Below are positions 6,641 to 23,625 of a stretch of DNA of 64,000 nucleotides, one piece after another; within the stretch, counting starts at the first letter, position 1; every line of letters begins with the position of its first letter. Origin of the DNA: a virus (Duplodnaviria > Caudoviricetes); the IMG/VR virus record IMGVR_UViG_3300021256_000056, positions 32,001-96,000 of that record; one strand, 5' to 3'. The position numbers and the translations under genes are program-made. The notes below the pieces were generated by a model. The model worked only from the letters and a program-made list of their open reading frames with translations, made no database searches and was not told the origin of the DNA.

Positions 6641-6763
6641 AGAAAATCATTTAAAAGACTGGATTCGAACCAGCGTTTCCCCTGCTTTCCAGAGGCGTTC
6701 TGACCCCTAAACTACATGTCCGAAGTTTTGGTGGACACAGGTAAAACTTGCTGTTGGTTTTCT
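6641..6763 (-). ncRNA. ACAGCAA-module RNA enclosing tRNA-like D and T arms
   Basis: agaaaacca-ACAGCAA ... gtagtttaggggtcagaac ... gctggttcgaatccagt ... tgattttct. Confidence 0.7.
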
Positions 6764-6832
6764 TTATTTAAGAATATATCAAAATTGTCAAAAAATCAAT
6801 GAAAATGATAGATTTCTAATAAAGTGTCAAAA

Positions 6833-7321
6833 TTAAACTTTTAACCCGAATTTTTTGATTAAATAGCTCTTTTTTTCATCTTTGGGCATGGATACCATGT
6901 AAAGAAAATCATCACCGTGCTTATTGATATAAGCTTCTAATGTACAAATTGTTTTACAAGGAACGCCAGCAGCAACCGTATTGCTTGGTATGTCTCTGTT
7001 CACTACACTTCCCGCCCCAATAATGCTGTTATCTCCAATGGTTACTCCAGGTAAAATAACGCTCCTGCAGCCAATAAAACAATTTTTGCCAATTTTAATT
7101 GGAGCATATATTACCGTTTCTTTGTTTCCATTGGGTAAATTCCTGATAACCCTCGTAGCAGCATCGTGTGTCACAAAGGCGACATCAAAACTCACAGTTG
7201 TATTATCCCCAATCTCAATGAGATACGGCTCAGAGCCGAAATTGCATGTGCCCCCAAAACTAACGTTTTTACCAAGTCTTAAACCGTTGTTAACCGCTTC
7301 TTTTAAATTTGTTACATCCAT
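6833..7321 (-). CDS. hexapeptide-repeat (LbH) acyltransferase
   Basis: IGKNCFIG..SVILPGVTIGDNSIIGAGSVV..DIP..TVAAGVP. Confidence 0.9.
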   Translation of the reverse strand: MDVTNLKEAVNNGLRLGKNVSFGGTCNFGSEPYLIEIGDNTTVSFDVAFVTHDAATRVIRNLPNGNKETVIYAPIKIGKNCFIGCRSVILPGVTIGDNSIIGAGSVVNRDIPSNTVAAGVPCKTICTLEAYINKHGDDFLYMVSMPKDEKKSYLIKKFGLKV

Positions 7322-7333
7322 AAATTATTGATT

Positions 7334-7409
7334 TGGAGCCCCATATTGGACTTGAACCAATAACCTCCTGATTACGAAACAGGTACTCTACCAATTGAGC
7401 TAATGGGGC
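7334..7409 (-). tRNA. tRNA-Thr(CGU)
   Basis: Cloverleaf, loop ttcgtaa, encoded CCA. Confidence 0.9.
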
Positions 7410-7414
7410 GAAAA

Positions 7415-8140
7415 CTATTCATCTTTGTCTTTTAGCGTTTTCTTTTTTCGATGAAACCTTTTACTATTCTTATTTAATGAGCCAAAGTTGGGGGTTAGGC
7501 TATGGCAATTAGGGCACAGTAGTTGCAAGTTTTCAATACGGTTATTTGTACAATCACCATCAATATGGTGAACTTCGAGAGGAACATTCCCCGTAAATTC
7601 GTTAACTTCGCCCCAGTGACATTTTTCGCATTTATTGTCGTGAAGGCTCATTAAGTATTCCTTAATAAACACTGGCACCTGTGAAGCTCCCCTCAAAAAA
7701 TTTTCTCCCCCTAGCCACCTTTCTAATTTGCTTATTTTTGGTGGGGTTTCATTTGTATATTCTTCGTATTCTCTTTCTGGAAACTTTGAACGTATGGAAT
7801 CTGAAATTTTTTTCTTGGTTTCAAAACTGCGTGGGCCACGTTTTACGTTATTATATTTCGCGGCACATGACGAGGAACAAAACTTATTGAATCTTTGTTC
7901 AAAACTCAATTTTCTCCCGCATTCTTCACAATACCTGGGATTTTTATCATATGTTTCCCTTGTTTGTTTGTTTTGATAATATTGTCCAGTAATATTCGCT
8001 TTCTGTTTTATCCTATTAATAAAACGCCAAGAAGCGCCATTGGGCCTCCTTCCAAAATAATTTATAACCTCTTTCTCGGAACAACATGCCTCGAACGCAG
8101 ATATTATTTCTTCAATAGAAATCTCTTCGACCTTTTTCAT
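7415..8140 (-). CDS. free-standing HNH endonuclease
   Basis: CEKC..LEVHHIDGDCTNNRIENLQLLCPNCHS. Confidence 0.9.
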   Translation of the reverse strand: MKKVEEISIEEIISAFEACCSEKEVINYFGRRPNGASWRFINRIKQKANITGQYYQNKQTRETYDKNPRYCEECGRKLSFEQRFNKFCSSSCAAKYNNVKRGPRSFETKKKISDSIRSKFPEREYEEYTNETPPKISKLERWLGGENFLRGASQVPVFIKEYLMSLHDNKCEKCHWGEVNEFTGNVPLEVHHIDGDCTNNRIENLQLLCPNCHSLTPNFGSLNKNSKRFHRKKKTLKDKDE

Positions 8141-8202
8141 ACTCTTTTTTATAATAAATAGTATAAAAGGGTGAAAAAGTCAAGTCGAACCATTGTTTTT
8201 GT

Positions 8203-8277
8203 GGGTGAGTAGTCGGATTCGAACCGACGTAAACCACATCCACAGTGTGGCCCCTAAACCTCTCGGGCATACTCACC
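8203..8277 (-). tRNA. tRNA-His(GUG)
   Basis: Cloverleaf, loop ctgtgga. Confidence 0.9.
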
Positions 8278-8418
8278 ATGTTTGCTGCATTAGTTATACG
8301 TATGCTGCCTGCAGCGAGCCCACGCATGGGTCCCTTATTCCGTTTCGCGGCTAACCCATGAACCGTCGTAGCATGTACCTGACTTCTGCTACGCTGTTCC
8401 TGTGCGTCAGGGTGGTTG

Positions 8419-8491
8419 AGCAGCGTAGCAGAATCGAACTGCCATCTCTAGCATGGCAAGCTAGTATAATCAACCATTATACGAACGCTGC
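8419..8491 (-). tRNA. tRNA-Gly(GCC)
   Basis: Cloverleaf, loop ttgccat. Confidence 0.9.
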
Positions 8492-8613
8492 AAATACTTC
8501 TTTTAGAACAACCCCAGAGAAGTTTAGAACTGTGCCGACCTACGATTCGGACGCTCATTTGACTTTCGTCAGGGAAGGCGCATCTTCGTTCCCGCCGCGG
8601 ACGGGCCAATAGA

Positions 8614-8889
8614 TTATTTAATTAATCGTTTCCGTTCTTCTTTGATAATCTCAAGTCCTGTTTCAATCTGTCTTAACCATTTCCCTTGTTCAGTAATTTT
8701 CGTCTCGGGAAGAGCATTCTTAAACTCGTTAAGGCTCTTTTCGGCATAATCACAGGACTCTTCGTCAAGTAAACTGTCCGCGCTAATTAAAGAAACATAA
8801 TAGAGGTTTAATAACCCAGTCTCGAACATTGTGTTGAGAAGAGTTATTATATCATTCCTAATTTCTTTTTCTGTTCTTTTCTTTTCCAT
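8614..8889 (-). CDS. hypothetical protein
   Basis: Start reassigned to MEKKRTE; the upstream part of the track ORF is tRNA sequence. Confidence 0.7.
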   Translation of the reverse strand: MEKKRTEKEIRNDIITLLNTMFETGLLNLYYVSLISADSLLDEESCDYAEKSLNEFKNALPETKITEQGKWLRQIETGLEIIKEERKRLIK

Positions 8890-8891
8890 TG

Positions 8892-8963
8892 AGCGGGATA
8901 GCAGAATTGGACTGCCATCTTCAGCTTGGAAGGCTGACATAATAACCGTTATACGAATCCCGC
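8892..8963 (-). tRNA. tRNA-Gly(UCC)
   Basis: Cloverleaf, loop cttccaa; T-loop variant GTCC. Confidence 0.85.
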
Positions 8964-8969
8964 AATTAG

Positions 8970-9042
8970 TTGTCGTTACCTGATTCGAACAGATATTTCC
9001 AGGTTCAGAGCCTGGCGTCCTCAACCGTTGGACGAAACGACA
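8970..9042 (-). tRNA. tRNA-Gln(CUG)
   Basis: Cloverleaf, ccagg-ctctgaa-cctgg. Confidence 0.85.
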
Positions 9043-9422
9043 ATTTTAGTAATCCAAATCACTTCTGGGTGTTCTCCAAAAACCGTGTGTGTGACATTAC
9101 ATAGCCATACGGTTAAAATGGGGGCAGCGTCCTCAGAGACTACGGCATCCATTATCTCATTAAATAAATAGCCACTTAATGAATATGTTGCTCCATCATC
9201 ATCATGTTTAAGTCTCGTTAACTTCAATAAACACTGCTTCGGCTCATCAATATTTAGAATAAATCCCGATTCCATTTCAACTTCGAAAGAATCTTTTCCC
9301 TTCGAGAGCAGCTCACACATTTCATCGGCCCCTAAAACCATCTCATTATCTTCAAGACTATGCTCTGGAACGTCGGCATACCAACGCCCGTCTTGCTTGA
9401 AAAATTTGAGTTTCGTTTTCAT
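9021..9422 (-). CDS. hypothetical protein (DUF6717-like)
   Basis: MKTKLKF..RWYADVP..EMVLGAD..VWLCNVT..VFGEHP. Confidence 0.65.
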   Translation of the reverse strand: MKTKLKFFKQDGRWYADVPEHSLEDNEMVLGADEMCELLSKGKDSFEVEMESGFILNIDEPKQCLLKLTRLKHDDDGATYSLSGYLFNEIMDAVVSEDAAPILTVWLCNVTHTVFGEHPEVIWITKIVVSSNG

Positions 9423-9426
9423 ATCG

Positions 9427-9502
9427 TCGAGTAGACAGGGCTCGAACCTGCATGAATCTCCACATCCCAAATGTGGCGAGGAACCAATTCCTCCACTACT
9501 CG
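9427..9502 (-). tRNA. tRNA-Pro(UGG)
   Basis: Cloverleaf, loop tttggga. Confidence 0.88.
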
Positions 9503-9920
9503 ATATGTGGACTCGATTTTTGGTTTTGTATAGCGGTACCAACTACTACGTATTCCACATGTTTTATCGTGCCAAGTCCTCACACGAACCGATATTTTAA
9601 GTGCTCGGTATGCAGTATCGTCCTTCCTGCTTCCATTACACTTTGCGCAACCGTTGGGCGTCGAACCCAAAGCCTTCTGTAGTACTTTCGCCATTAAGCT
9701 GTTAGCAAAAGCAGGTGGTATTGCACTCACCGCGACGGGAGCTACCCGTAATCCATTGTTCGGTTGCGTTTGCCAAGGAAGATGGATTCGAACCATCATT
9801 CACGCATTGTGTGATTGCGCCACCGCTTATTCCTTATTATTTACACACAAAGTAATATTCAGCGGAATCCCCTTGTGGATAGGGGCGGTTTGCCATTGTC
9901 CTACTCCTTGTTTAAATGCA

Positions 9921-10052
9921 TTACCTGCCCTGACCTCTATATGCTTTTACATAATGTTTTGAATTCTTCAATTTTGAAGTTCTGCATTTTGATACAATGC
10001 CTGGGCGCTTCTTGTGAAGCCTTTGGGTTGCCGATGTTGCTCTGTTTGCCAT
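9921..10052 (-). CDS. 43-aa basic peptide ending YRGQGR
   Basis: MANRATSATQRLHKKRPGIVSKCRTSKLKNSKHYVKAYRGQGR; TAnnTTTG promoter at ~10067-10075. Confidence 0.7.
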   Translation of the reverse strand: MANRATSATQRLHKKRPGIVSKCRTSKLKNSKHYVKAYRGQGR

Positions 10053-10101
10053 TTTCTTAATTTTTCACAAATATACATTTATTTTTTATAAAAATCAATA
10101 G

Positions 10102-10216
10102 TCGGGGAAGAAGGAATCGAACCTCCGCTAACGGCACCCAAAGCAATTTGACGCTGCTGTTAGTTTTCAATACTGAAAACATTTAAAACGTCGTGCTACC
10201 ACTACACTATTCCCCA
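10102..10216 (-). tRNA. tRNA-Pro(UGG) with 44-nt ACAGCA-module insert at 29/30 (10145-10188)
   Basis: Removing the insert gives acggc-tttgggt-gccgt; G72/A73 Pro identity. Confidence 0.8.
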
Positions 10217-10223
10217 AAATTTG

Positions 10224-10340
10224 TGAGGAGGATGGGACTCGGACCCATGACCCACGGGTTAAAAGCCAAGGTGAGGTTGCTGTTAGTTTTCAGTACAGAA
10301 AACGTTTTATACGTTGCTCTACCAACTGAGCTACCTCCTC
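10224..10340 (-). tRNA. tRNA-Lys(UUU) with 44-nt ACAGCAA-module insert at 29/30 (10268-10311)
   Basis: Removing the insert gives acggg-cttttaa-cccgt. Confidence 0.82.
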
Positions 10341-10346
10341 AAAATT

Positions 10347-10393
10347 GCGACGATAGGAGGAGTCGAACCTCCAATCATGCCAAATCTATCGTC
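10347..10393 (-). ncRNA. tRNA minihelix-like RNA (acceptor plus T arm only)
   Basis: gacgata...ggagg-ttcgact-cctcc-tatcgtc-g. Confidence 0.6.
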
Positions 10394-10428
10394 AACCGTC
10401 AACTTAAGACAACGTGTTACCACGTTTG

Positions 10429-10511
10429 TGGCCCCTGTGGGACTCGAACCCACACCCCATTGCTGGGAGTAGATTTTGAGTCTACCGCGTATACCATTCC
10501 GCCAAGGGGCC
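10429..10511 (-). tRNA. tRNA-Leu(CAA)
   Basis: Cloverleaf with long V arm, loop ctcaaaa. Confidence 0.92.
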
Positions 10512-10615
10512 ATAAATAAAGAAGCCAGGCAACACTGCGACATTTTCAGAGTTTTTGTGACCACTTTGCTGGTACCCTACTTAAGTGGTTGCCCTACCAA
10601 CCTCGGGCTTCTTAG

Positions 10616-10689
10616 TACCCCCTGTAGGATTCGAACCTACGACCCGCAGATTAGAAATCTGCTGCTCTGTCCAACTGAGCTAAGAGGGC
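10616..10689 (-). tRNA. tRNA-Arg(UCU)
   Basis: Cloverleaf, loop tttctaa. Confidence 0.92.
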
Positions 10690-10694
10690 TTTTG

Positions 10695-10769
10695 TGCTCC
10701 TAGAAGGACTCAAACCTTCAACCTTATCCTTAGGACGGATTTGCGCTGATTCAATTGCGCCATAGGAGC
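10695..10769 (-). tRNA. tRNA-Arg(CCU)
   Basis: Cloverleaf, loop gtcctaa. Confidence 0.85.
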
Positions 10770-10778
10770 ATTTGTTGC

Positions 10779-10881
10779 GGCAGTAAACCGAATCGAACGG
10801 CTATCAACCACCGACGGTGGTCATTCTTCGTGCGGGTTTCATTTAATTGCAGCTGCACAATACCCATTAAACTATACTGCC
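10779..10881 (-). ncRNA. aberrant tRNA-like RNA with expanded D region
   Basis: ggcagta/tactgcc acceptor, T arm ccgttcgattcgg, extra hairpin in D loop, non-canonical anticodon arm. Confidence 0.55.
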
Positions 10882-10886
10882 ATTTG

Positions 10887-11010
10887 TTGCGGGTGAGGGA
10901 GTCGAACCCCCGTCTTTTCGTTATGGGTGAAATTACGATGTAAGTTGCCGCAAGATTTCCATGCGAAAACCTTTTTTGCTTTTACATGCTAACCATTGCA
11001 CTAACCCGCA
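10887..11010 (-). tRNA. tRNA-fMet(CAU)-like with variant module insert (GCGGCAA)
   Basis: tgcgggt acceptor, cccataa loop, insert ggttttc-gcat-ggaaatctt-gcggcaa. Confidence 0.65.
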
Positions 11011-11018
11011 ATATTGTG

Positions 11019-11421
11019 TGGAGATGGGCGGACTCGAACCGCCGTTTTTCAAGCTTGCAAACTGCTTTCTACGCGCTTAGTTTTCTTTATGATTCGTTGG
11101 GCACTGGTGGAAAACACACCTGAGTACTCAATATATCATTCTGGAAACGTAGCCAAACCAGACGAATGAAACTGGCCTGCCGCTCTCGATTTGATGATGC
11201 CCTCATATTGTGAATTCAACCAAGACCAAACATTCACGAGGACAATCGTCCCGACACATCCTAGGTGCCGATGGATTAGGCTTATTTGCTTAGCAAATTA
11301 AGCGGCGATTGCATAGGTGTTGTTGCCAACTAATTTTTTTGATATTTGTTTAAAGGCTAAAAATCAAAACGCCTGCGTGCTTACAATCCTCATAGATTGA
11401 AATCAAAACCAAAACATCCCC
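11019..11421 (-). ncRNA. ssrA: tmRNA, tag GNNTYAIAA
   Basis: 5' ggggatg, 3' ggcggttcgagtccgcccatctcca, internal ggcaacaacacctatgcaatcgccgcttaa. Confidence 0.93.
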
Positions 11422-11430
11422 ATGTTTTTG

Positions 11431-11503
11431 TACCCGATACAGGACTCAAACCCATACTCTGGGAGCCGTATTCCCAAGTTCTATTCAGTTAAACTAATCG
11501 GGC
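11431..11503 (-). tRNA. tRNA-Arg(ACG)
   Basis: Cloverleaf, loop atacggc. Confidence 0.8.
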
Positions 11504-11643
11504 TTTTTATTTTATTTTCATTTTCTCTATATTCCTTTTTTCTATATCTTCTTACCGAAGAATCATTCCTGCTTCCAAAATTTTCTGTCATTGCATGGCA
11601 ATTTGGACATAAAACTTCTATGTTTTCTTCTGTTACATTTGTT
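11481..11643 (-). pseudogene. HNH endonuclease remnant
   Basis: VTEENIEVLCPNCHAMTENFGSRN C-terminus only; upstream ATG out of frame. Confidence 0.8.
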
Positions 11644-11676
11644 TATTAATAAATAATTAGATAAGAAAGATTTGAG

Positions 11677-11750
11677 AGCCCTCAGTCGGAGTCGAACCAA
11701 CACTTCATCCATACCACAGATGCGTACTCAGCCTTTAATACGATGAGGGC
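11677..11750 (-). tRNA. tRNA-Thr(GGU)
   Basis: Cloverleaf, loop gtggtat. Confidence 0.85.
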
Positions 11751-11855
11751 AAATCGCCAGGTGAAGCTAACCTGGCCCCCGTGAACTACCAGCCAGCCCT
11801 GCACCACGGGTGTTGATATGAGTACTGGTTGCATATCAACTTACAAGCTTACTTG

Positions 11856-11930
11856 TGCTCCCGATGGGACTCGAACCCATAACCCACTGTTTAAGAGACA
11901 GTTGCGCTCAACCAATTGCGCCACGAGAGC
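11856..11930 (-). tRNA. tRNA-Lys(CUU)
   Basis: Cloverleaf, loop ctcttaa. Confidence 0.9.
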
Positions 11931-11940
11931 AGTTATTATG

Positions 11941-12012
11941 TAGCGGATAGGAGAGTCGAACTCCTCTCTCAAGATTGAGAATCTTACGTCCTAACCGATA
12001 GACTAATCCGCC
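11941..12012 (-). tRNA. tRNA-Glu(CUC)
   Basis: Cloverleaf, loop ttctcaa. Confidence 0.88.
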
Positions 12013-12213
12013 ATTATCATATTACACAATGTTACATGTTTTATAAAAAATAAAGCATTGCGGATTTCCGTAGTCACCGCAATCGTTCTCCTCCTGCTAC
12101 CGTATACGACAGGCTAAGGCGAACTATAAGAACTTACCTATATTCGAACCTTTTCCTCTTAATCCACTTTATAAGAGTATGCTATAGGGTTCCCCACCTT
12201 GGTACTTTGATTT

Positions 12214-15748: not shown

Positions 15749-15880
15749 ATAAAAAAACTTAAGCCACTCGCGTCCCACAGGTCTGTTCTCGCTTTTATTA
15801 AGAGGTGCACACGAGATTACTCTCCCTCCTTTAAAGTAAGTCGCCCTCCTAAGCCTTGTCCGCTTAAGTTAAAAAACAAC

Positions 15881-15947
15881 GGGAAACATTTTTACGTATG
15901 TTCAGAAAGAAAGTCGGAATTTTAGTAAATTTTGCTGTTAGTTTCCC
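15881..15947 (-). ncRNA. stand-alone ACAGCAA module with Glu(UUC)-like anticodon stem-loop
   Basis: gggaaac-ta-ACAGCAA...ttccga-ctttctt-tctgaa...gtttccc. Confidence 0.7.
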
Positions 15948-15952
15948 TTTAG

Positions 15953-16074
15953 AGCTGATGCAAGGAATCGAACCTCGGTCTGCGGCTTGGAATGCATTTC
16001 TTGATTTTTGCTGTCCGTAACCTTGTCAGAATACCTTATTTGAAAACGCTGTGCTACCACTACACCACATCAGC
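15953..16074 (-). tRNA. tRNA-Gly(UCC) with 51-nt ACAGCAA-module insert at 29/30 (15996-16046)
   Basis: Removing the insert gives gcggc-attccaa-gccgc. Confidence 0.8.
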
Positions 16075-17232: not shown

Positions 17233-17572
17233 GTTTCTCACCTAAGACTAACGCGCTAATCTGTCATTCGCAATGCACTAGGTGTATAACTTTTTTTATA
17301 CGTGCAGTTCTAACCCCCTTCGTGACCCCTCAGTGCTACTATAGTCGCCCTATATTTGGATTACTGACGATACCCTACACCTACTCATCACGCCATTTAA
17401 CCGTGGCTCTCTCGCATTGTTCCAATCTACGAGAGGCCCCCCCACGGTGAGGCCGTTAGTCGGATTTGACTTGAGCAAGAAGTCTGAATTGAACAGCAAG
17501 TTCCGTCCTTACGTAGCGAACAAGGGACGGACGTCTCCCGAACCTGGGTATCTTGCTAAAAAATGTGTAACC

Positions 17573-17706
17573 AGAAATCAGAAATGTTTTACTCTACCTA
17601 CTGAGCTACATGGGAAGAATACCGTAACTCCCACGGAGGGACTCGAACCCTCGTCCTTAGTTTTACAGACTTACAAACAATTAATGAACTTGCTGTAAGA
17701 TTTCTT
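17573..17706 (-). ncRNA. circularly permuted tRNA(GUA)-like RNA closed by ACAGCAA module
   Basis: Order: module, ctgtaaa loop, T arm, loop-closed acceptor (cgtggga/tcccatg), D arm, module 3' strand. Confidence 0.78.
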
Positions 17707-18122: not shown

Positions 18123-18236
18123 CGGGAAGCGTTTTACGTCCAACGGACGGGGGCGGACTTGAACCGCCGAACCTCTCAAGTTCTGATTTTCAGTCGGAAT
18201 TGTTAAACCTTTGTTGAGATTGCTGTGTGCTTCCCT
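18123..18236 (-). ncRNA. ACAGCAA module enclosing Phe(GAA) anticodon arm and T arm
   Basis: gggaagc-ac-ACAGCAA...ttccga-ctgaaaa-tcagaa...ggcggttcaagtccgcc...gcttccc. Confidence 0.75.
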
Positions 18237-18240
18237 GTTG

Positions 18241-18325
18241 CAGGCGCTGGAGGATTCGAACCCCCGAGGAATTTAATCCTGCTGGTTTTGGAGACCAGTG
18301 CCTTCGACCGCTCGGCCAAGCGTCT
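18241..18325 (-). tRNA. tRNA-Trp(CCA) with long variable arm
   Basis: ctggt-ctccaaa-accag then caggattaaattcct V arm. Confidence 0.85.
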
Positions 18326-19028
18326 GTATATATTCCATTAATCCTTTTTTATCGAATGGTAGTCCGTAATGCTTAAACCATTTTCTTATAGCATTATCCG
18401 ACACTCCAAAAGACTTTCCGACTTGTAAAAAACTTCTTTTAACTAAAAAAAGATTAATTAAAGTTTCTTTTGATGGGTGATTTCTTTCCCATGCGCATTC
18501 TCGCGCTTCTATCCAATCTTCTTTGTTTGTGTGTCTTTTCTTTACTATGGTTTTAGTAGTGGATTCGTATTTATTTGAATTTTTTCCTGCATAAGTATCC
18601 GTTTGTGAATGACAATTTGGGCATAATAACATGAGATTTTCAATCCTATTATCGTCATGTATACCATTGATATGGTGGAGTTGTAATGATATCGGTTTAC
18701 CATTCCATTCGCAAATTCCACATTGTGGATTCTCACACTTATTTTCTTTTAAGCCACACTCAATTAGTCTTTTTTTTAGCCGACTTTTGTTTGTGTATAA
18801 ACTATGTTCAACTAGAATGTCATCCATGGGAATTTTTTCTCTGTAGCTTTTTGTCATTCGTTTATAAGAGAATCTTAATTCCAGCCCGAGTTCCTTTGCA
18901 AGCGCCCTTACCTCTTTATAATCTTCCCCGCCAACGTTTTCTATTCCGAGTCTATGACAAAGGTCCAACATATTAACACATTTGTCGTAATTTTCAATTA
19001 ACCTGTCTATCGCGTATTCTCGATTCAT
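18273..19028 (-). CDS. free-standing HNH endonuclease
   Basis: LQLHHINGIHDDNRIENLMLLCPNCHSQT; C-terminal HTH-like segment; reads into tRNA-Trp. Confidence 0.9.
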   Translation of the reverse strand: MNREYAIDRLIENYDKCVNMLDLCHRLGIENVGGEDYKEVRALAKELGLELRFSYKRMTKSYREKIPMDDILVEHSLYTNKSRLKKRLIECGLKENKCENPQCGICEWNGKPISLQLHHINGIHDDNRIENLMLLCPNCHSQTDTYAGKNSNKYESTTKTIVKKRHTNKEDWIEARECAWERNHPSKETLINLFLVKRSFLQVGKSFGVSDNAIRKWFKHYGLPFDKKGLMEYIQTLGRAVEGTGLQNQQD

Positions 19029-19216
19029 AATATTCTTTTTATTATAAATAGTATGAAAAGAGAAAAATCGAACCTTTTTGGAAATTTTTATTTAGTTCGA
19101 ATATATAATGAAAAATGAATTTTCCTCTAAGGGGAGTAGTCTAACTCCCCAGTGTGTTTTATGACCTTTTCAGCAAACCAATGTAAAAACCCAATAACTA
19201 TGGTTGTAAAAATTTC

Positions 19217-19281
19217 GGAAATCTGTTTTTCAGAATATTAGATTAAAAGTCTAGTCCTTGATAAATTGCTGTAAGATTTCC
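19217..19281 (-). ncRNA. stand-alone ACAGCAA module with Lys(UUU) anticodon stem-loop
   Basis: ggaaatct-t-ACAGCAA...taga-cttttaa-tcta...agatttcc. Confidence 0.78.
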
Positions 19282-19283
19282 TC

Positions 19284-19374
19284 TGGCGGAGAGGCTGGGA
19301 TTCGAACCCAGGGGACGCTCAACACGCCCAACGGTTTTCAAGACCGCCGCTATCGACCACTCAGCCACCTCTCC
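19284..19374 (-). tRNA. tRNA-Ser(UGA)
   Basis: Cloverleaf, loop cttgaaa, encoded CCA. Confidence 0.93.
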
Positions 19375-19383
19375 ATTAAATTT

Positions 19384-19456
19384 GAACTGCAAAAGGATTC
19401 GAACCTTTACCCGTGGACTATGCCCGCGTGTCCTGTCCATTAGACGATACAATTTT
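19384..19456 (-). ncRNA. pseudo-tRNA with non-canonical anticodon loop
   Basis: D arm cgtctaatggacaggac, T arm aaaggttcgaatccttt, loop gcatagt. Confidence 0.5.
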
Positions 19457-19524
19457 TTATCGCAGTAAAGAGGCCACCACTGATTTAACACGGCATCAGC
19501 AATGACAACCACTACGCCACGTGT

Positions 19525-19605
19525 GCTGGGGTATGGTGATTCGAACACCAATTATTCTCACGCCCTTAGGGCTTGAGGCGGTACTACCGTTGTACTACAC
19601 CCCAG
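19525..19605 (-). ncRNA. pseudo-tRNA with extended anticodon arm
   Basis: ctggggt acceptor, D and T arms, ctcaagccc-taa-gggcgtgag arm. Confidence 0.5.
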
Positions 19606-19693
19606 TTTATGTCTCTCCAAAGTCACGCCACTTTTGGGTATTTATATCGCGGGGGCAGGTGTCGCCCTCGCTTATGGTAATTTATCTCAATAT

Positions 19694-19705
19694 TGTCAAA
19701 GAACG
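19694..19705 (-). promoter_or_regulatory. boxA-like antitermination element
   Basis: GTTCTTTGAC just downstream of promoter; also at 24835, 27494, 28200. Confidence 0.6.
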
Positions 19706-19722
19706 TGTGTTCCGAAGAACTC

Positions 19723-19775
19723 TGGTGCAAATATATATGTAATTTTTCAAACTACAAAATATTTTTGCATTTTTT
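19723..19775 (-). promoter_or_regulatory. Bacteroidota-type promoter (TTTG ... TAnnTTTG), duplicated at 24851-24906
   Basis: aaatattttgtagtttgaaaaattacatatatatttgca on minus strand. Confidence 0.75.
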
Positions 19776-19780
19776 TTTTG

Positions 19781-19857
19781 TCTAGGAGATGAGACTCGAA
19801 CTCACATTATCCTGGCTCCTGACCAGGCAACCTCACATCCAATTGGTTTACTCCTAG
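19781..19857 (-). tRNA. atypical tRNA, Pro(AGG)-like
   Basis: C1-G72, A73; cctgg-tcaggag-ccagg with C33. Confidence 0.5.
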
Positions 19858-19872
19858 TTATATTTCAATTTG

Positions 19873-19956
19873 TGGCCCCGACGGGACTCGAACCCGTAAC
19901 CCTCGGTTTAAAAGACCGATGCGCTCGCTTTCGCTATCCATTTGCGCCACGAGGCC
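19873..19956 (-). tRNA. tRNA-Lys(UUU) with hairpin in D loop
   Basis: tcggt-cttttaa-accga; D loop contains gc-gaaa-gc. Confidence 0.8.
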
Positions 19957-20051
19957 GTTCCATTTTTCTCGGAAGCCTCGCATCACAATCGGGGCTTCAC
20001 ATTAATATTTCTGTTTTATACGTTTCATGTTTCTATTTTATTTCTTTTCTT

Positions 20052-20140
20052 GCTGGCCAGGAAGGATTCGAACCTCCAACCTTTGACACATCTAAAGCCT
20101 TTAGGGCAGTGCCTGCTCTCCCATTTGGAGCTACTAGCCA
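20052..20140 (-). ncRNA. pseudo-tRNA with expanded anticodon loop
   Basis: Intact acceptor, D and T arms; ggcac/gtgtc stem encloses 19 nt. Confidence 0.5.
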
Positions 20141-20183
20141 GTTCTTTTGACAGTTTTTGGCATGCCACTGACAAACCGACAGG

Positions 20184-20259
20184 TACTGGGTGACGGAATC
20201 GAACCGACATCAGATGCTTGAAAGGCACCTCGCCTCAACCATTAGCAGATTAACCCAGC
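20184..20259 (-). tRNA. tRNA-Glu(UUC), second type
   Basis: Cloverleaf, loop ctttcaa. Confidence 0.8.
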
Positions 20260-20266
20260 ATGTATT

Positions 20267-20560
20267 TTAATGAACTAAATGTTTAAATTTTTCCAATTTC
20301 AATTTCGCTTCTTCTCTATCTTCCTCGGTCAAAAGTCTATTTGTACTCCCCACGTGCCACTTATCACACTTTGAACATTTATAAGCCACCATCTTATGTA
20401 ATATGTTTTCACAAGTATTAAGGAACCTGGCCGTTGTCAGAGCATCCATCTCAGTATCGTAGCTCTTTTTGGGGACCAATTTGTCTCCCTCAATCTTATA
20501 ATGGCTTCTTATTGTTCTTTTTTCATCCATACGAAATTCATAATGCAAATTTCGTGCCAA
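20267..20560 (-). CDS. hypothetical protein with YKCSKCDKWH zinc motif
   Basis: ORF track. Confidence 0.7.
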   Translation of the reverse strand: MARNLHYEFRMDEKRTIRSHYKIEGDKLVPKKSYDTEMDALTTARFLNTCENILHKMVAYKCSKCDKWHVGSTNRLLTEEDREEAKLKLEKFKHLVH

Positions 20561-20667
20561 AGTTTTCTTTTTCTAAAAATTTCTTCAAAAAAACCTCCAG
20601 AGAGTTTTGGGGAACATCTTTGGAGGCGTGGAATATAGTGTCGGTCTAAACCGTGTGGTGCTATGTA

Positions 20668-20826
20668 TTATGCATCTGTTCCCATTATTCCTCCTCCTAG
20701 TCCTTTAAATGGCCATGCGCCGAGGCGTTCCTCTGACTTTCTAATGCTGACATATAGGCATGGGCAATCAAGGCTGCTCTTGTGGGAGCCTCCCATGACG
20801 TTTGTATTATTGCTCAGCATAACCAT
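20668..20826 (-). CDS. putative 52-aa leader peptide followed by terminator (20590-20627)
   Basis: MVMLSNN...GLGGGIMGTDA*, then cctcca/tggagg hairpin with U-tract. Confidence 0.4.
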   Translation of the reverse strand: MVMLSNNTNVMGGSHKSSLDCPCLYVSIRKSEERLGAWPFKGLGGGIMGTDA

Positions 20827-20984
20827 TTTGTACCTATTTTTCAATTATAAATATATGATAAAATCGAAAAAACTAAAATTCTGTGCAAATATATATGCTT
20901 TTTTTGTAAAAATCAACAAAAAACAAAAAAAAAGAGCGAATTTTTTAGATTCGCTCAATACGTTTATCACTGTTTATTCAAATC

Positions 20985-21323
20985 TTACCTACCAGCAGCG
21001 AGTATGTATGAGGCAATCATTTTTCCCCAAGCATCGTCTCTAGGGATTGAGAATTCACCACCGTTATCCCAATCGTACCCTGTTGGTGCCCACATAATTG
21101 TTATGTGGTCGTAACTTGGCATAAGACGGTACATCTTTCCAGACTTTCCCCTTACCTCAAAATCTTGGTGTCCTTCTTTTGATACACGTTCTCCGTAGAT
21201 GTCGTCCATTATTTCTTTTGAAGGAATGGGGTTATCTGTCCACTCATTTAGCACTTTTTTAACGCTTTCTTTAACTATTTTACGAAGCTGTGATTCGTTG
21301 AGATTTATAGTATTCTTTTTCAT
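20985..21323 (-). CDS. hypothetical protein with N-terminal INLNESQLRKIVKES motif
   Basis: ORF; upstream CTATTTAT motif. Confidence 0.75.
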   Translation of the reverse strand: MKKNTINLNESQLRKIVKESVKKVLNEWTDNPIPSKEIMDDIYGERVSKEGHQDFEVRGKSGKMYRLMPSYDHITIMWAPTGYDWDNGGEFSIPRDDAWGKMIASYILAAGR

Positions 21324-21361
21324 GTGCTTTTAATTTTCTTATAAATAGTTTGTTGAAACAA

Positions 21362-21387
21362 AAAAGCCTCAGATTTATCTGAGGCTT
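21362..21387. terminator. intrinsic terminator
   Basis: aagcctcaga/tctgaggctt hairpin. Confidence 0.7.
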
Positions 21388-21395
21388 ATAGGAAC

Positions 21396-21462
21396 GGAAA
21401 ACTTTTTGTTAAAATTCGAAGTTTGGAATCGGATTTGGTCTAATATTTGCTGTCGGTTTTCC
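21396..21462 (-). ncRNA. stand-alone ACAGCAA module with Trp/Gly-like loop
   Basis: ggaaaac-cg-ACAGCAA...cga-ttccaaa-cttcg...gttttcc. Confidence 0.65.
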
Positions 21463-21476
21463 TATTTTTGTCTGTT

Positions 21477-21794
21477 TTAGTCTTCAAAGTATTCCTTGAT
21501 AAGTGCCTTAATGGTTTCAAGTTCTACTTCCCTGTCGCGGAGTTCGAGAGCGAGATTGATACGTTTGCGTACCCAGTCCTTGGTGTTGAGGTTTTCTCCG
21601 ACGATGAGGCTCTGTGTGCTTCTCACTGAGAGGTCTTCCATGGAGACAATCTCATTGTTGATGGTGCGGATGCACTTTTCGACTGAACGCTTTTCATCTT
21701 CAAAGACGTCCTTGGTCTCTTCGGTGACATTCTGTGCCCTTTTCTGAATAAGGTTGTCACCAGTGTTTGTTAAGATTTGAGTAAATTTTCCCAT
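21477..21794 (-). CDS. hypothetical coiled-coil protein
   Basis: ORF track. Confidence 0.75.
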   Translation of the reverse strand: MGKFTQILTNTGDNLIQKRAQNVTEETKDVFEDEKRSVEKCIRTINNEIVSMEDLSVRSTQSLIVGENLNTKDWVRKRINLALELRDREVELETIKALIKEYFED

Positions 21795-21795
21795 A

Positions 21796-22137
21796 TTATT
21801 TGCTGTTTATTACGTGTCTATGCTGGAGTTTATAAAGTCCTGGAACGATTTCGATGCTTGCGTGCGATTCTGATTCCCAGTCTTCGATTGTGTTATCAAT
21901 CTTCTCGATTATGCTTCCTCCGTCGTGTCGCAAAACTTCGTGCATGATTGCAATCTCACGTTTAGTTTCTAATTCCCGATGGACTTTCTCTGGGAGGGCT
22001 GCAGCAAGTGTTGCGTAGTCATTAGAGCTAAGGCTGACCTGCACTGTTACGTTATGGTCTCTCGCATCGCTTTCGCAAGTCACAAGGACGTTATCTCCGT
22101 AATCGTTAGTCGCAGTTAAGTTATTAATATTAGTCAT
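21796..22137 (-). CDS. hypothetical protein
   Basis: ORF track. Confidence 0.7.
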   Translation of the reverse strand: MTNINNLTATNDYGDNVLVTCESDARDHNVTVQVSLSSNDYATLAAALPEKVHRELETKREIAIMHEVLRHDGGSIIEKIDNTIEDWESESHASIEIVPGLYKLQHRHVINSK

Positions 22138-22154
22138 GTTTTTCGTAAATTTTG

Positions 22155-22226
22155 TGCTCCATACAGGAATCGAACCCGTCTAAGAACGTTTTAGGGACGC
22201 CCGCTCGGCCACTGAGCCAATGGAGC
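22155..22226 (-). tRNA. tRNA with CUA anticodon (amber suppressor candidate)
   Basis: gctccat/atggagc acceptor; ggcgt-ccCTAaa-acgtt; C33. Confidence 0.65.
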
Positions 22227-22234
22227 AGAAAGAC

Positions 22235-22295
22235 AGGAAACATTAAAATCAACATTATCAGTGTTTATTTGACGAAAGGTTGCTGTGTGTTTCCT
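22235..22295 (-). ncRNA. stand-alone ACAGCAA module with Ile(GAU) anticodon stem-loop
   Basis: aggaaaca-c-ACAGCAA...aaca-ctgataa-tgtt...tgtttcct. Confidence 0.78.
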
Positions 22296-22311
22296 TATCT
22301 TAATGTTTCGT

Positions 22312-22602
22312 TTATTGAACCAACTTAAGTCCTTTAAACATTTCACCCGAATCTTCAACCGCAATTGCCGTAAGGCTATTGTTTAAATCGGGCTCGTAGA
22401 ACGCAGAATAAGTCTTATGTTTGTCCCTCAATCTCTGTCTCCATTTCTCAACGTCGGCGTAGAGATATATAAGGTACTCATTATTCCATTGTTGCTGTGG
22501 GTTATCCAAAAGATATTGTGCAACTGCGTGCCCACCTTGAACGCAGGCGTAAACGGGGTTGAGTCGTTTACTCACCAGCACGTACAATCTCTTCGCAGAC
22601 AT
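22312..22602 (-). CDS. peptidyl-tRNA hydrolase 2-like (PTH2/PTRHD1 fold)
   Basis: LYVLVSKRL..CVQGGHAVA..FYEPDLNNSLTAIAV. Confidence 0.7.
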   Translation of the reverse strand: MSAKRLYVLVSKRLNPVYACVQGGHAVAQYLLDNPQQQWNNEYLIYLYADVEKWRQRLRDKHKTYSAFYEPDLNNSLTAIAVEDSGEMFKGLKLVQ

Positions 22603-23023
22603 CGGTATACACTTTAATCGTTTCTTCCCCCCAGTATGTTTTACAATTTTTTTCCTCATAGACTTTTAACTGATAACCATAGGTTTTCAGATAACTATTA
22701 ATCTCATCAGAATAAAGGAACAAGGGGTGTTTTCCTTCGAGGTGGTCAGCCAAGCGATATCCAGTTTGGCGGTAGTAGTCTTCTTTGTTAAGAGGCTTCG
22801 CCTTATTTTCTATCTGCTCAAACTTTCTTCCTCTCATTAACCCATATGCCGCATACATTGCCCTTAGGGTGTCTTTATTACTAGAAACCTTCCAGCAGGC
22901 TTCATACGGTTGCATTGTCCTTTCGGTCTTTAGGTTAACAGTTTTTCTTTGTTCTTTTGCTTTTCTTTGTTCCACCTCCAAGGCGGCGATTTCCTTACGG
23001 AATTCAATAATTTCTTGTTTCAT
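22568..23023 (-). CDS. hypothetical protein
   Basis: ORF with LRAMYAAYGLMRGR motif. Confidence 0.75.
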   Translation of the reverse strand: MKQEIIEFRKEIAALEVEQRKAKEQRKTVNLKTERTMQPYEACWKVSSNKDTLRAMYAAYGLMRGRKFEQIENKAKPLNKEDYYRQTGYRLADHLEGKHPLFLYSDEINSYLKTYGYQLKVYEEKNCKTYWGEETIKVYTDVCEEIVRAGE

Positions 23024-23093
23024 AATGTTGTTTGGTTTTAATCATTTTATTTTTGGCTCTCGCCGACAAATTCCACTTTCAAATCAAACACCA

Positions 23094-23126
23094 TTAAGGT
23101 GGAACTGGATTAACCTAGTGTTTCAT
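23094..23126 (-). promoter_or_regulatory. uORF M-K-H-(TAG)-V-N-P-V-P-P-TAA
   Basis: atgaaacac tag gttaatccagttccacct taa. Confidence 0.55.
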
Positions 23127-23161
23127 AACGATAATTGTTAAGTTTGTTATTAAAAATAAAA

Positions 23162-23464
23162 AGAACACTACGGTAGGATTACTGATTACCTACAAATACT
23201 CTACAAGCGCGTTATTCAGTCACACCCAAGAAGGTTAGCTACGCCTACTTTTAAAAGGGTGAGGGGAATGCTTACCCCCAAACGGATACAGCCATCAGTC
23301 ACTGTAACTACGATTTGTCCGTTTCTTACGTCACTCTCGGTTGGCCAACCGAGGCTACTTCAACCTTACGCTTCGTGTTGCCCTCTAACCGCCTCCTGAA
23401 CTTTTCAGTCCAGGCTAACGTACCTTATGGGCAGGCTACCCATTGTTCGGTCACAAAGTGTTCT
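23162..23464 (-). ncRNA. ~300-nt structured ncRNA candidate
   Basis: Closing stem gaacact/agtgttc, many internal hairpins, no ORF. Confidence 0.55.
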
Positions 23465-23567
23465 TTTTATGATGGGTCGCCCCGCCATAAATTTTCTTTT
23501 TTTTAAAGAGCTTTTACAAAAATACGACCTTTTAATTAAAAAAGCAAGGTCTTTTAATAAAAAAAAC

Positions 23568-23625
23568 GGAAAACTTTTTTGTGACGCAGTATTATCAGTA
23601 CTTCCAAAATTGCTGTAAGTTTTCC
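23568..23625 (-). ncRNA. stand-alone ACAGCAA module with Ile(GAU) anticodon stem-loop
   Basis: ggaaaactt-ACAGCAA...agta-ctgataa-tact...aagttttcc. Confidence 0.78.

What the first reader, a model, noticed from the sequence alone, without database searches (positions are those of the whole stretch)
6641..23625. Family of ~12 RNAs pairing an ACAGCAA module with tRNA anticodon loops: candidate new system
Seen: on the minus strand a short helix (often GGAAAC/GUUUCC-like) followed by ACAGCA(A/G) recurs at 6641, 10145, 10268, 15881, 15996, 17573, 18123, 19217, 21396, 22235 and 23568, with a GCGGCAA variant at ~10945. Helix sequences covary between copies while ACAGCAA stays constant, as expected of a protein-binding site. 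In nearly every copy a 7-nt anticodon loop lies 10-26 nt 3' of the motif: Pro UGG, Lys UUU x2, Met CAU, Glu UUC, Gly UCC, Tyr GUA, Phe GAA, Trp/Gly-like, Ile GAU x2. The rest of the tRNA is optional (full, permuted, 3' half or absent). Established: anticodon nucleases such as PrrC, VapC and PARIS AriB cut these loops during anti-phage defence, and Ro60/Y RNAs join a protein-binding stem to a tRNA-like domain. Inference: a panel of anticodon baits on a shared handle, acting as decoys or cleavage sensors that release or activate a partner protein.
Basis: partly seen in the sequence, partly recalled or inferred. Interest (0 to 1): 0.95.

Follow-up and report, generated by a model that had tools for sequence, protein, structure and literature searches.

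The report
Phage tRNA-mimic RNAs with Ro60-like partner
A rumen jumbo phage carries twelve small RNA genes in its tRNA array that share one handle (a short clamp helix plus CUUACAGCAA) holding tRNA anticodon arms or rearranged tRNAs; they are most likely undescribed Y-RNA-like partners of a Ro60-shaped protein that the same phage encodes.

Summary
All twelve elements are present on the minus strand. They belong to a family of about 61 copies in 12 jumbo-phage records. The layout is fixed: A, a 7-9 bp helix, ACAGCAA at nt 11-17, variable cargo, an A-rich strand, the 3' helix strand, then G. All 8 helix pairs covary (95.7% paired, 0/500 shuffles). Anticodon-type hairpins occur in 29/61 members against 4.2 in shuffles, but about half of the members lack one.

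The handle occurs in three circular permutations: a 44-51 nt insert in the anticodon stem of full tRNAs, a closing stem around permuted tRNAs, and a stand-alone form.

It is not a new tRNA intron system as the leading reading. The handle travels with a DUF2828+DUF7788 protein whose model has the Ro60 fold (Z 20.7 to 1yvp). Handles lie beside that gene in 6/7 relatives and in 4/4 loci picked by protein alone. This phage has the gene too, about 41 kb beyond the IMG/VR record on a 272-kb scaffold of the same virus. A thirteenth handle ends 4 nt before its ATG.

The handle equals the Dictyostelium Class I RNA signature, but scores below the Rfam thresholds. Decoy or bait function is untested. Earlier agents of this scan reached the same reading on other phage genomes; I re-tested their leads here.

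The parts
6640..6764 (-). Handle RNA. P1 (AGAAAAC / GAUUUUCU) plus ACAGCAA encloses a hairpin and a tRNA-like body in normal order (D arm, irregular anticodon-like arm, T arm).
   Evidence: R2 30.0 bits. Rfam tRNA 28.2 bits at 6655-6717. Fold.
10102..10216 (-). tRNA-Pro(UGG) body with a 44-nt handle insert (10145-10188) between nt 29 and 30. The insert is 8 nt + GUUUUCA-loop-UGAAAAC + UA + ACAGCAG + 9 nt.
   Evidence: Rfam tRNA 41.8 bits with 55 nt in place of 11. Exact removal gives ACGGC-UUUGGGU-GCCGU.
10224..10340 (-). tRNA-Lys(UUU) body with a 44-nt handle insert (10268-10311) between nt 29 and 30.
   Evidence: Rfam tRNA 47.7 bits. Exact removal gives ACGGG-CUUUUAA-CCCGU.
10890..11009 (-). 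tRNA-like body whose anticodon arm is replaced by a handle hairpin (GGUUUUC-GCAU-GGAAAUC) + UU + variant word GCGGCAA. No canonical anticodon loop. Weakest member.
   Evidence: Sequence and fold only. Not found by R1 or R2.
15880..15948 (-). Stand-alone handle RNA. Cargo is a hairpin with loop CUUUCUU (Glu UUC-like, one stem mismatch, U at position 37).
   Evidence: R1 76.8 bits. R2 63.2 bits.
15953..16074 (-). tRNA-Gly(UCC) body with a 51-nt insert (15996-16046) at 29/30 carrying ACAGCAA. The helix of this copy is weak.
   Evidence: Rfam tRNA 45.5 bits, 122 nt. Stem GCGGC / GCCGC restored by eye from the sequence.
17572..17706 (-). Handle closing a circularly permuted tRNA-like RNA. Order: ACAGCAA, anticodon arm (CUGUAAA, Tyr GUA), T arm, acceptor stem closed by a loop, D arm, P1 3' strand.
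   Evidence: R2 31.8 bits. Rfam YrlA 31.4 bits, gathering score 69.
18123..18236 (-). Handle (GGGAAGC / GCUUCCC) closing an anticodon arm (CUGAAAA, Phe GAA, one mismatch), a T arm and a small hairpin.
   Evidence: R1 27.8 bits. R2 28.0 bits. Fold.
19216..19282 (-). Stand-alone handle RNA displaying a Lys(UUU) anticodon arm (UAGA-CUUUUAA-UCUA). Its interior is homologous to a copy in another phage (G005; L206:15048-15115) that has a different, compensated P1.
   Evidence: R1 75.6 and R2 72.9 bits. Rfam Dicty_Class_I_RNA 23.3 bits. Sequences compared.
21395..21463 (-). Stand-alone handle RNA 15 nt downstream of ORF 21477-21794. Cargo has an irregular UUCCAAA loop. An intrinsic-terminator-like hairpin follows.
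   Evidence: R1 69.0 bits. Fold.
22234..22296 (-). Stand-alone handle RNA with an Ile(GAU) anticodon arm (AACA-CUGAUAA-UGUU), just upstream of the suppressor tRNA(CUA) gene.
   Evidence: R1 65.0 bits..
23567..23626 (-). Stand-alone handle RNA with an Ile(GAU) anticodon arm (AGUA-CUGAUAA-UACU), followed by a U run.
   Evidence: R1 61.7 bits..

Best explanation
These are genes for a multicopy family of small RNAs built from a constant handle and exchangeable cargo.

The handle is a 7-9 bp clamp helix whose sequence is free, followed on its 5' strand by the single-stranded word (C)UUACAGCAA and closed by ...UYCY-G. It is most likely the binding site of the phage's own Ro60-shaped protein, which has a DUF2828 HEAT-repeat ring and a DUF7788 vWA/MIDAS domain. 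Together they would form a Y-RNA-like particle.

The cargo in this phage is mostly a tRNA anticodon arm (Lys, Ile, Glu, Phe, Tyr, Gly, Pro). It comes bare, with parts of a permuted tRNA, or as a whole tRNA into whose anticodon stem the handle is grafted.

By analogy with Y RNAs, which tether or gate Ro60, the cargo would present tRNA look-alikes to tRNA-recognising proteins. Those could be host anticodon nucleases, or repair or decay enzymes. The handle holds the ring protein.

A thirteenth handle sits at the start codon of the protein's gene and probably lets the protein repress its own translation.

Shown: the RNA family, its helix and its three topologies; the fold of the protein; the genomic linkage. 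Inferred: physical binding, retention of the insert in the mature RNA, autoregulation, and the bait or decoy role.
For: 1. Family and structure. There are 61 members in 12 phage records with a fixed layout. All 8 P1 pairs covary. All copies are co-oriented with the tRNA genes.

2. Permutations. The same module occurs in three circular permutations. This points to a folded RNA module and not to a signal that depends on RNA ends.

3. Partner fold. The DUF2828+DUF7788 protein model has pLDDT 89.7. The top 12 Foldseek hits are all Ro60/TROVE. VIA-align gives Z 20.7, rmsd 4.2 A, 405 residues to 1yvp_A, against Z about 10 for vWA-only hits. The MIDAS residues D-x-S-x-S are invariant.

4. Linkage.
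- The gene is in 7/12 records, including 3/3 that are at least 90% complete.
- The nearest handle is 10-610 nt from the ORF in G011, G007, G009 and G005, and 3-3.5 kb away in G002 and G006.
- In four loci chosen only by protein homology, handles lie 0.1-2.5 kb downstream in all four.

5. This phage. A 272,275-bp scaffold is 99.9-100% identical to the record over three overlaps. It carries a 534-aa DUF2828+DUF7788 ORF that is 33% identical, E 1e-73, to the modelled protein.

6. Handles at the start codon. A 52-nt handle (35.7 bits) ends 4 nt before that ORF's ATG. In G005 the handle overlaps the ATG.

7. Non-tRNA cargo. In L235 and L236 the handles beside the gene carry cargo with no tRNA likeness by eye. 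So the handle, not the tRNA part, goes with the protein.

8. Precedent. Bacterial and mycobacteriophage YrlA join a Ro60-binding stem to a tRNA-like domain (PMC4201824). Thermus phage phiLo Ro60 binds two phage Y-like RNAs and host PNPase (PMC12135203).
Against: - No binding or expression data. The one read-mapping call was lost to a filter.
- In this phage the protein gene lies about 180 kb from the array.
- In G003 it is about 120 kb away. In G008 (82% complete), G004, G001 and G010 no such gene was found.
- The handle does not resemble the Ro-binding bulged helix of known Y RNAs. Neither Rfam YrlA nor Class I reaches its gathering score.
- Exact removal of the inserts restores perfect anticodon stems in Pro and Lys here, and by eye in Gly here and in three tRNAs of relatives. 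That is also what an intron would show.
- The known direct binder of the look-alike Class I RNAs is an RRM protein, Rnp1A, not a Ro60-like one (PMC7919456).
Confidence: 0.62

Rival explanations
1. The module is a new kind of small tRNA intron or processing signal. In full tRNAs it is cut out and the exons are ligated. In the permuted and stand-alone forms the same reaction would circularise the cargo, and acceptor-end processing would then give mature tRNAs, as with permuted tRNA genes of red algae.
For: - Exact excision restores perfect 5-bp anticodon stems and canonical loops in Pro and Lys here. By eye the same holds for Gly here and for Met(CAU), Pro(UGG) and Tyr(GUA) in relatives (sequences), at positions 28/29, 29/30 and 31/32.
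- In all six the 5' exon ends in G and the insert ends in U (by eye).
- Some permuted copies would give a near-complete tRNA if joined (L208:12453, L207:8214).
- The phage encodes an RNA ligase, a Thg1-like enzyme, RNase T and an RlaP nucleotidyltransferase.
Against: - The same handle carries cargo with no tRNA likeness by eye, sits beside the Ro60-like gene, and sits on its start codon.
- About half of members have no tRNA part.
- Several permuted copies cannot give a paired anticodon stem when joined (17572-17706; L207:8459; by eye).
- All three interrupted tRNAs here duplicate other genes: Pro UGG at 9426, Gly UCC at 8891, and a Lys UUU gene with a group I intron.
- No splicing endonuclease or RtcB was seen. 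No ribozyme family matches.
- A paired stem is needed for display of the arm just as much as for splicing.
Confidence: 0.13
2. The elements are processing, stability or termination punctuation for the long tRNA-array transcripts. They would be recognised by host RNases, with the helix acting as an acceptor-stem mimic, and would have no relation to the Ro60-like protein.
For: - Constant A before and G after the helix (61/61 and 56/61).
- Copies abut tRNA 3' ends and each other with 2-nt spacers.
- Some are followed by U runs or terminator-like hairpins.
- One lies just after a protein-coding ORF (21395-21463).
Against: - This does not explain the invariant ACAGCAA, the versions buried inside tRNA anticodon stems, or the repeated linkage to one protein family, including overlap with its start codon.
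Confidence: 0.08
3. A DNA-level mobile element: a miniature inverted-repeat element, or a homing site of the HNH endonucleases in the array.
For: - Terminal inverted repeats.
- Several HNH endonuclease ORFs in the arrays of four or more phages.
- Multiple copies per genome.
Against: - Strictly one orientation, that of the transcribed strand.
- The inner helix positions differ between copies with perfect compensation, while the outer ones are kept. Transposase-bound ends would not do this.
- No target-site duplications were noticed.
Confidence: 0.03

Closest known systems
YrlA-type Y RNAs with Ro60/Rsr in bacteria and mycobacteriophages (Rfam RF02553; Chen et al. 2014, PMC4201824), and Yrl1/Yrl2 of Thermus phage phiLo with phage Ro60 (PMC12135203)
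   Same: A small RNA with a terminal stem joined to a tRNA-like domain (T arm, closed acceptor, D arm in 17572-17706). It is encoded in a genome that also encodes a ring protein with the Ro60 fold and a vWA/MIDAS domain. The RNA genes often lie next to the protein gene.
   Different: - The protein is not detected by Pfam TROVE; it is DUF2828+DUF7788, about 11-13% identical to Ro60.
- The handle (free-sequence helix plus ACAGCAA) is unlike the bulged Ro-binding helix or the CGAA motif.
- There are 12-13 copies per genome instead of 1-4.
- The cargo includes real anticodon arms, which YrlA lacks.
- The handle is also grafted inside otherwise complete tRNAs.
- YrlA model scores are 27-36 bits against a gathering score of 69.
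Class I RNAs of dictyostelid social amoebae (Rfam RF01414; Kjellin et al. 2021, PMC7919456; search pattern GTTGRCCTTACAGCAA...GTCAACTG in PMC5054030)
   Same: Same architecture and nearly the same letters: a short stem joining the 5' and 3' ends whose sequence varies but covaries, the word CUUACAGCAA directly after the 5' strand, a variable remainder, a 3' end ...UG, about 60 nt, many genes per genome. Rfam consensus GaUcuC-CUUACAGCAAUuaAA...GagAuC-UG.
   Different: - Eukaryotic, with a DUSE promoter.
- Reported as absent outside Dictyostelia.
- The known direct binder is the RRM protein Rnp1A.
- No tRNA-like cargo is described.
- Phage copies score 23-31 bits, below the gathering score of 41.5.
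- Whether the likeness is common descent, transfer or convergence is open.
tRNA introns and permuted tRNA genes (bacterial group I introns in tRNA anticodon loops; archaeal bulge-helix-bulge introns at non-canonical sites; permuted tRNAs of Cyanidioschyzon)
   Same: Inserts of fixed place in the anticodon arm whose exact removal restores the tRNA. Permuted gene order with the break at the same place.
   Different: - 44-51 nt with no group I core.
- No bulge-helix-bulge seen by eye.
- Bacterial-virus setting without a splicing endonuclease.
- The same module occurs with no tRNA at all and beside a Ro60-like gene.

Membership tests
YrlA / Y RNA (Rfam RF02553) | Score at or above the Rfam gathering threshold (69 bits) | tested here: not met
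   31.4 bits for 17561-17677. 27-36 bits for four permuted copies in relatives. Stand-alone copies give no hit.
YrlA / Y RNA (Rfam RF02553) | tRNA-like domain in the order T arm, closed acceptor stem, D arm, held by a terminal stem | tested here: met
   Met for 17572-17706 (alignment) and for L207:8214, L207:8459 and L208:12453. Not a feature of the stand-alone copies.
YrlA / Y RNA (Rfam RF02553) | Conserved Ro-binding bulged helix in the terminal stem | tested here: not met
   The terminal stem is a plain 7-9 bp helix of free sequence followed by unpaired ACAGCAA. It does not align to the YrlA lower stem.
YrlA / Y RNA (Rfam RF02553) | Bound by a Ro60 orthologue | not testable with these tools
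   Only genomic linkage to a protein with the Ro60 fold is shown.
Dictyostelium Class I RNA (Rfam RF01414) | Score at or above the Rfam gathering threshold (41.5 bits) | tested here: not met
   23.3 bits for 19231-19280. 22.9-30.7 bits for six copies in relatives.
Dictyostelium Class I RNA (Rfam RF01414) | Short covarying stem joining the ends, conserved 11-nt word CCUUACAGCAA next to its 5' strand, variable remainder | tested here: met
   Layout. Consensus comparison. Published pattern in PMC5054030 and description in PMC7919456. The phage copies share 10 of the 11 letters (CUUACAGCAA).
Dictyostelium Class I RNA (Rfam RF01414) | Dictyostelid gene with upstream DUSE promoter | tested here: not met
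   These are phage genes inside polycistronic tRNA arrays.
Ro60 / TROVE proteins (for the partner) | Match to Pfam TROVE (PF05731) | tested here: not met
   No match in any of the 12 records. The protein matches DUF2828 and DUF7788 instead.
Ro60 / TROVE proteins (for the partner) | HEAT-repeat ring followed by a vWA domain with a MIDAS motif | tested here: met
   Model pLDDT 89.7. Z 20.7, rmsd 4.2 A, 405 residues aligned over residues 10-545 to 1yvp_A; also Rsr 2nvo and phage phiLo Ro60. D352, S354 and S356 are invariant.
Group I tRNA intron | Group I catalytic core | tested here: not met
   No Intron_gpI match over the 44-51 nt inserts. The only such match in the array is at 12527-12722.
Archaeal-type tRNA intron | Bulge-helix-bulge at the exon-intron borders, and a splicing endonuclease | tested here: inconclusive
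   No such motif seen by eye at the six junctions. The endonuclease family was not searched.

The most novel reading that the evidence does not exclude
The helix-plus-CUUACAGCAA handle is a universal address tag for DUF2828-type Ro60-like proteins, shared by jumbo phages and dictyostelid Class I RNAs. If so, the long-unexplained Class I RNAs would be Y-RNA-like partners of such a protein. In this phage the tag would be used to arm the ring protein with a panel of anticodon arms. These would capture, sense or neutralise host anticodon nucleases, making it an RNA-guided counter-defence aimed at tRNA-cleaving immunity.
Probability: 0.2. Interest if true: 0.92.

Novelty: new variant of a known kind. 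Interest (0 to 1): 0.8.

Why it matters
Ro60/Y RNA particles are known, but what they do in bacteria and phages is still unclear. Here the RNA partner is multiplied a dozen-fold, and its variable part is an explicit set of tRNA anticodon arms. These are the exact targets of many anti-phage nucleases.

That gives a concrete, testable link between Ro60-like proteins and the fight over tRNAs. It also assigns a likely fold and ligand to two domains of unknown function (DUF2828, DUF7788) found in more than 1800 proteins.

It explains a class of 'tRNAs with odd inserts' and 'permuted tRNAs' that gene finders miss or miscall in jumbo phages. And it offers a lead on the Class I RNAs of social amoebae, which share the same handle and whose mechanism is unknown.

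Tried and rejected
- Read mapping. 
- First pattern scan. GAAAACTNACAGCAA in IMG/VR gave over 100 loci that were almost all chance. Only L079 was real.
- Relatives by the neighbouring SprT-like protein: none found. GenBank phages: no close relative.
- RtcB, Pfam TROVE and reverse transcriptase: absent from all 12 records. This removed a retron-like reading (AGC after a closing stem) and a phage RtcB splicing route.
- T4 Rnl1 family: nothing rang, controls included, so uninformative.
- RNA_ligase PF09414 was scored absent from G000 by the genome search, but a 225-aa RNA_ligase ORF is on record there. Absences from that tool are soft.
- Known ribozymes and riboswitches: no Rfam match over the elements at E up to 1-10, other than YrlA and Class I.
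- Promoter reading. The reverse strand gives TAnnTTTG, the Bacteroidota -7 box, in only some copies. Rejected by eye.
- Deletion scan with ARAGORN to place the insert borders was too permissive. It was replaced by a strict stem-and-loop rule and by eye.
- Shared proteins. G000 and the complete G002 share only nine proteins (NrdD/G, YqeY, NadE, dUTPase, thymidylate synthase-like, metallophosphoesterase, HNH, one small ORF). None is an obvious partner.
- A second helix between the U-rich stretch after ACAGCAA and the A-rich stretch before the 3' strand is plausible in some copies, but I did not test it by covariation.
- No complex prediction was run, because the tool does not take RNA.

Full report
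**What is in the window**

The minus strand of 6000-25000 is a giant tRNA array. It holds 35 tRNA genes by ARAGORN, a tmRNA and an amber-suppressor tRNA. The record is a 195-kb IMG/VR fragment of a T4-like jumbo phage (Gp23, T4 portal, S77 protease) from ruminant gut samples.

ACAGCAA occurs 13 times on this strand between 6748 and 23616. A twelfth copy carries the variant GCGGCAA. Two others, inside ORFs, are chance.

**Anatomy**

A covariance model was built from five stand-alone copies plus one from another phage (R1). It was then rebuilt from 24 hits (R2). R2 finds 61 members in 12 phage records.

The layout is fixed:
- an A;
- nine nucleotides that form the 5' strand of a 7-9 bp helix (consensus RGAAAWC, then UU);
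- ACAGCAA at nt 11-17;
- a U-rich start of the interior;
- cargo of 23-164 nt;
- an A-rich strand;
- the 3' strand of the helix;
- a G (56/61).

All eight helix pairs show changes on both sides. 95.7% of cells are paired. No shuffle of 500 reaches the observed covariation, and the signal collapses when partners are slid.

Copies with homologous interiors have entirely different, compensated helices. An example is 19216-19282 here against L206:15048. Part of the set was found with a pattern that demanded complementary ends. The divergent helices came from the model search in the same loci.

**Three topologies**

- In tRNA-Pro(UGG) 10102-10216 and tRNA-Lys(UUU) 10224-10340, the module is a 44-nt insert between nt 29 and 30. 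Its helix is closed by a loop. Exact removal restores perfect anticodon stems.
- tRNA-Gly(UCC) 15953-16074 has a 51-nt version at the same site.
- Relatives have such inserts at 28/29 and 31/32 in Met, Pro and Tyr tRNAs (read by eye).
- In 17572-17706 the helix is terminal and encloses anticodon arm, T arm, closed acceptor stem and D arm. This is a circular permutation of the first form and the topology of YrlA.
- In five copies only a hairpin remains.

So the helix, the word and the cargo helix form one folded unit, whichever loop is open.

**Anticodon display**

By strict rules (at least 4 bp, 7-nt loop Y-U-NNN-R-N), 29 of 61 members have such a hairpin, against 4.2 +/- 1.9 in shuffled cargo. 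Lys UUU is the commonest, followed by Tyr GUA and Ile GAU.

In this window about ten of twelve copies show an anticodon-like arm by relaxed rules. About half of the family, however, has other or no recognisable cargo. The anticodon arm is therefore frequent cargo, not a defining part.

**The partner**

My first searches found no RtcB, Pfam TROVE or reverse transcriptase in any of the twelve records.

Notes of earlier agents of this scan on other phages named a DUF2828 protein and Dictyostelium Class I RNA. I tested both leads.

Occurrence and position:
- DUF2828+DUF7788 ORFs of 532-603 aa occur in 7 of 12 records, including all three that are at least 90% complete.
- The nearest handle lies 10-610 nt from the ORF in four records and about 3 kb away in two.
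- In four loci chosen only by protein homology, all four have handles within 0.1-2.5 kb downstream.
- Two of those four have cargo with no tRNA likeness by eye.

Fold:
- A model built on 27 sequences has pLDDT 89.7 and pTM 0.89.
- Its twelve best PDB matches are all Ro60/TROVE structures.
- The second-look alignment gives Z 20.7, rmsd 4.2 A, 405 residues over the whole chain to Xenopus Ro60 bound to RNA. vWA-only hits reach about Z 10.
- The MIDAS residues are invariant.

**Is the partner in this phage?**

It is not in the 195-kb record, even with my own profile.

The same virus exists as a 272,275-bp ENA scaffold. It is 99.9-100% identical to the record over three overlaps, with one constant offset. 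Walking along it found a 534-aa DUF2828+DUF7788 ORF about 41 kb beyond the right end of the record. It is 33% identical, E 1e-73, to the modelled protein.

Directly upstream lies a 52-nt handle, AAGAAAAC-AA-ACAGCAG...GUUUUCUG (35.7 bits). It ends 4 nt before the ATG. In phage G005 a handle overlaps the ATG of the same gene. This placement suggests that the protein binds its own leader.

**Mechanism**

Shown:
- a structured multicopy RNA family;
- a protein with the Ro60 fold;
- repeated genomic linkage, including the gene's own start site.

Inferred, with my odds:
- the handle binds the protein (about 0.6-0.65);
- the inserts stay in the mature RNA;
- the cargo presents tRNA look-alikes to tRNA-recognising proteins, such as anticodon nucleases, while the ring protein is tethered, as Y RNAs tether Ro60 to PNPase (about 0.3 for the bait or decoy role specifically).

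The phage also has an RlaP nucleotidyltransferase, an RNA ligase, a Thg1-like enzyme and RNase T in one cluster. A metallophosphoesterase and an AAA ATPase lie beside the Ro60-like gene. These fit a tRNA damage and repair theme but prove nothing.

**Rivals**

A small-intron reading (0.13) is kept alive by the exact restoration of anticodon stems and by a G|...U| pattern at the six borders. It does not explain handles with non-tRNA cargo, handles on the protein's start codon, or permuted copies that cannot be joined into a paired stem. All three interrupted tRNAs here are redundant.

Transcript punctuation (0.08) and a DNA mobile element (0.03) fit still less.

**Comparison with what is known**

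Phage Ro60 with Y-like RNAs is established (PMC4201824, PMC12135203). TROVE proteins with a tRNA-like partner have been noted in a few jumbo phages (PMC7824862).

What is different here:
- the divergent protein family;
- the handle;
- the copy number;
- the real anticodon arms;
- the grafting into complete tRNAs.

The handle is nearly letter-for-letter that of Dictyostelium Class I RNAs (GTTGRC-CTTACAGCAA...GTCAAC-TG). Those RNAs are reported as unique to dictyostelids (PMC7919456). Scores stay below both Rfam thresholds, so I file these RNAs under neither family.

I found no paper describing this phage family.

**Verdict**

This is a real and interesting feature. It is a new variant of the Ro60/Y-RNA kind. 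Function beyond the likely protein partnership is untested.

Noticed in passing
window 12467-13375 (-): Weak group I intron match (12527-12722, 34.4 bits, gathering score 50) with an HNH ORF (12675-13289). Another reader places it inside a tRNA-Lys(UUU) gene. If so, both Lys(UUU) genes of this phage are interrupted, in two different ways.
   Followed up: partly
window 23640-23835 (-): An initiator-like tRNA body split after CUCA of its anticodon loop by about 109 nt. The insert holds AUACAGCG, a hairpin and a complete inner tRNA-like fold. It may be a loose relative of the handle, with the anticodon stem acting as the clamp.
   Followed up: partly
window 23983-24090 (-): tRNA-like gene (Rfam 44.7 bits, 108 nt) with a roughly 40-nt extra region after the anticodon arm and a non-canonical loop GCAACUC. 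It has no ACAGCAA.
   Followed up: partly
window 10173-10293 (-): The 3' helix strand of the Lys insert and the 5' helix strand of the neighbouring Pro insert can pair over 9 bp (ACUGAAAAC / GUUUUCAGU). That is longer than either local hairpin. It would enclose Lys 3' half plus Pro 5' half, which is the geometry of the permuted forms.
   Followed up: no
window 7415-8140, 12675-13289, 18273-19028 (-): Three HNH endonuclease ORFs inside the tRNA array. Homologues lie in the arrays of G002, G004, G006 and G008.
   Followed up: partly
window 11016-11421 and 22154-22226 (-): Phage tmRNA (tag GNNTYAIAA, close to what I recall of Bacteroidota tags, suggesting a Bacteroidota host; from memory, not tested) and an amber-suppressor tRNA(CUA). 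Long ORFs are nevertheless open under the standard code.
   Followed up: no
G000:C1 about 8000-13000 (outside the window; L248:259-6986): Cluster of RlaP nucleotidyltransferase, 225-aa RNA ligase, Thg1-like 3'-5' polymerase and RNase T. This is a tRNA-repair-type gene set about 25 kb from the array.
   Followed up: no
L254:2004-4130 (same phage, beyond the record's end): Downstream of the Ro60-like gene: a 122-aa ORF, a metallophosphoesterase (230 aa) and an AAA ATPase (352 aa). An AAA ATPase also follows the gene in L237. vWA proteins often work with AAA+ partners.
   Followed up: partly
L206:9308-9395 (G005 29308-29395): Near-threshold RAGATH-1 hammerhead ribozyme match (49 bits, gathering score 56.3), about 40 nt upstream of the handle that overlaps the start of the Ro60-like gene.
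   Followed up: no
window 21477-21794 (-): Small ORF (105 aa, no Pfam match) just upstream of handle 21395-21463. It has 37%-identical homologues inside the arrays of G002 and G006.
   Followed up: partly
L205:7309 (G004): A tRNA-Met(CAU) insert carries the word ACAGCAA twice, 12 nt apart.
   Followed up: no
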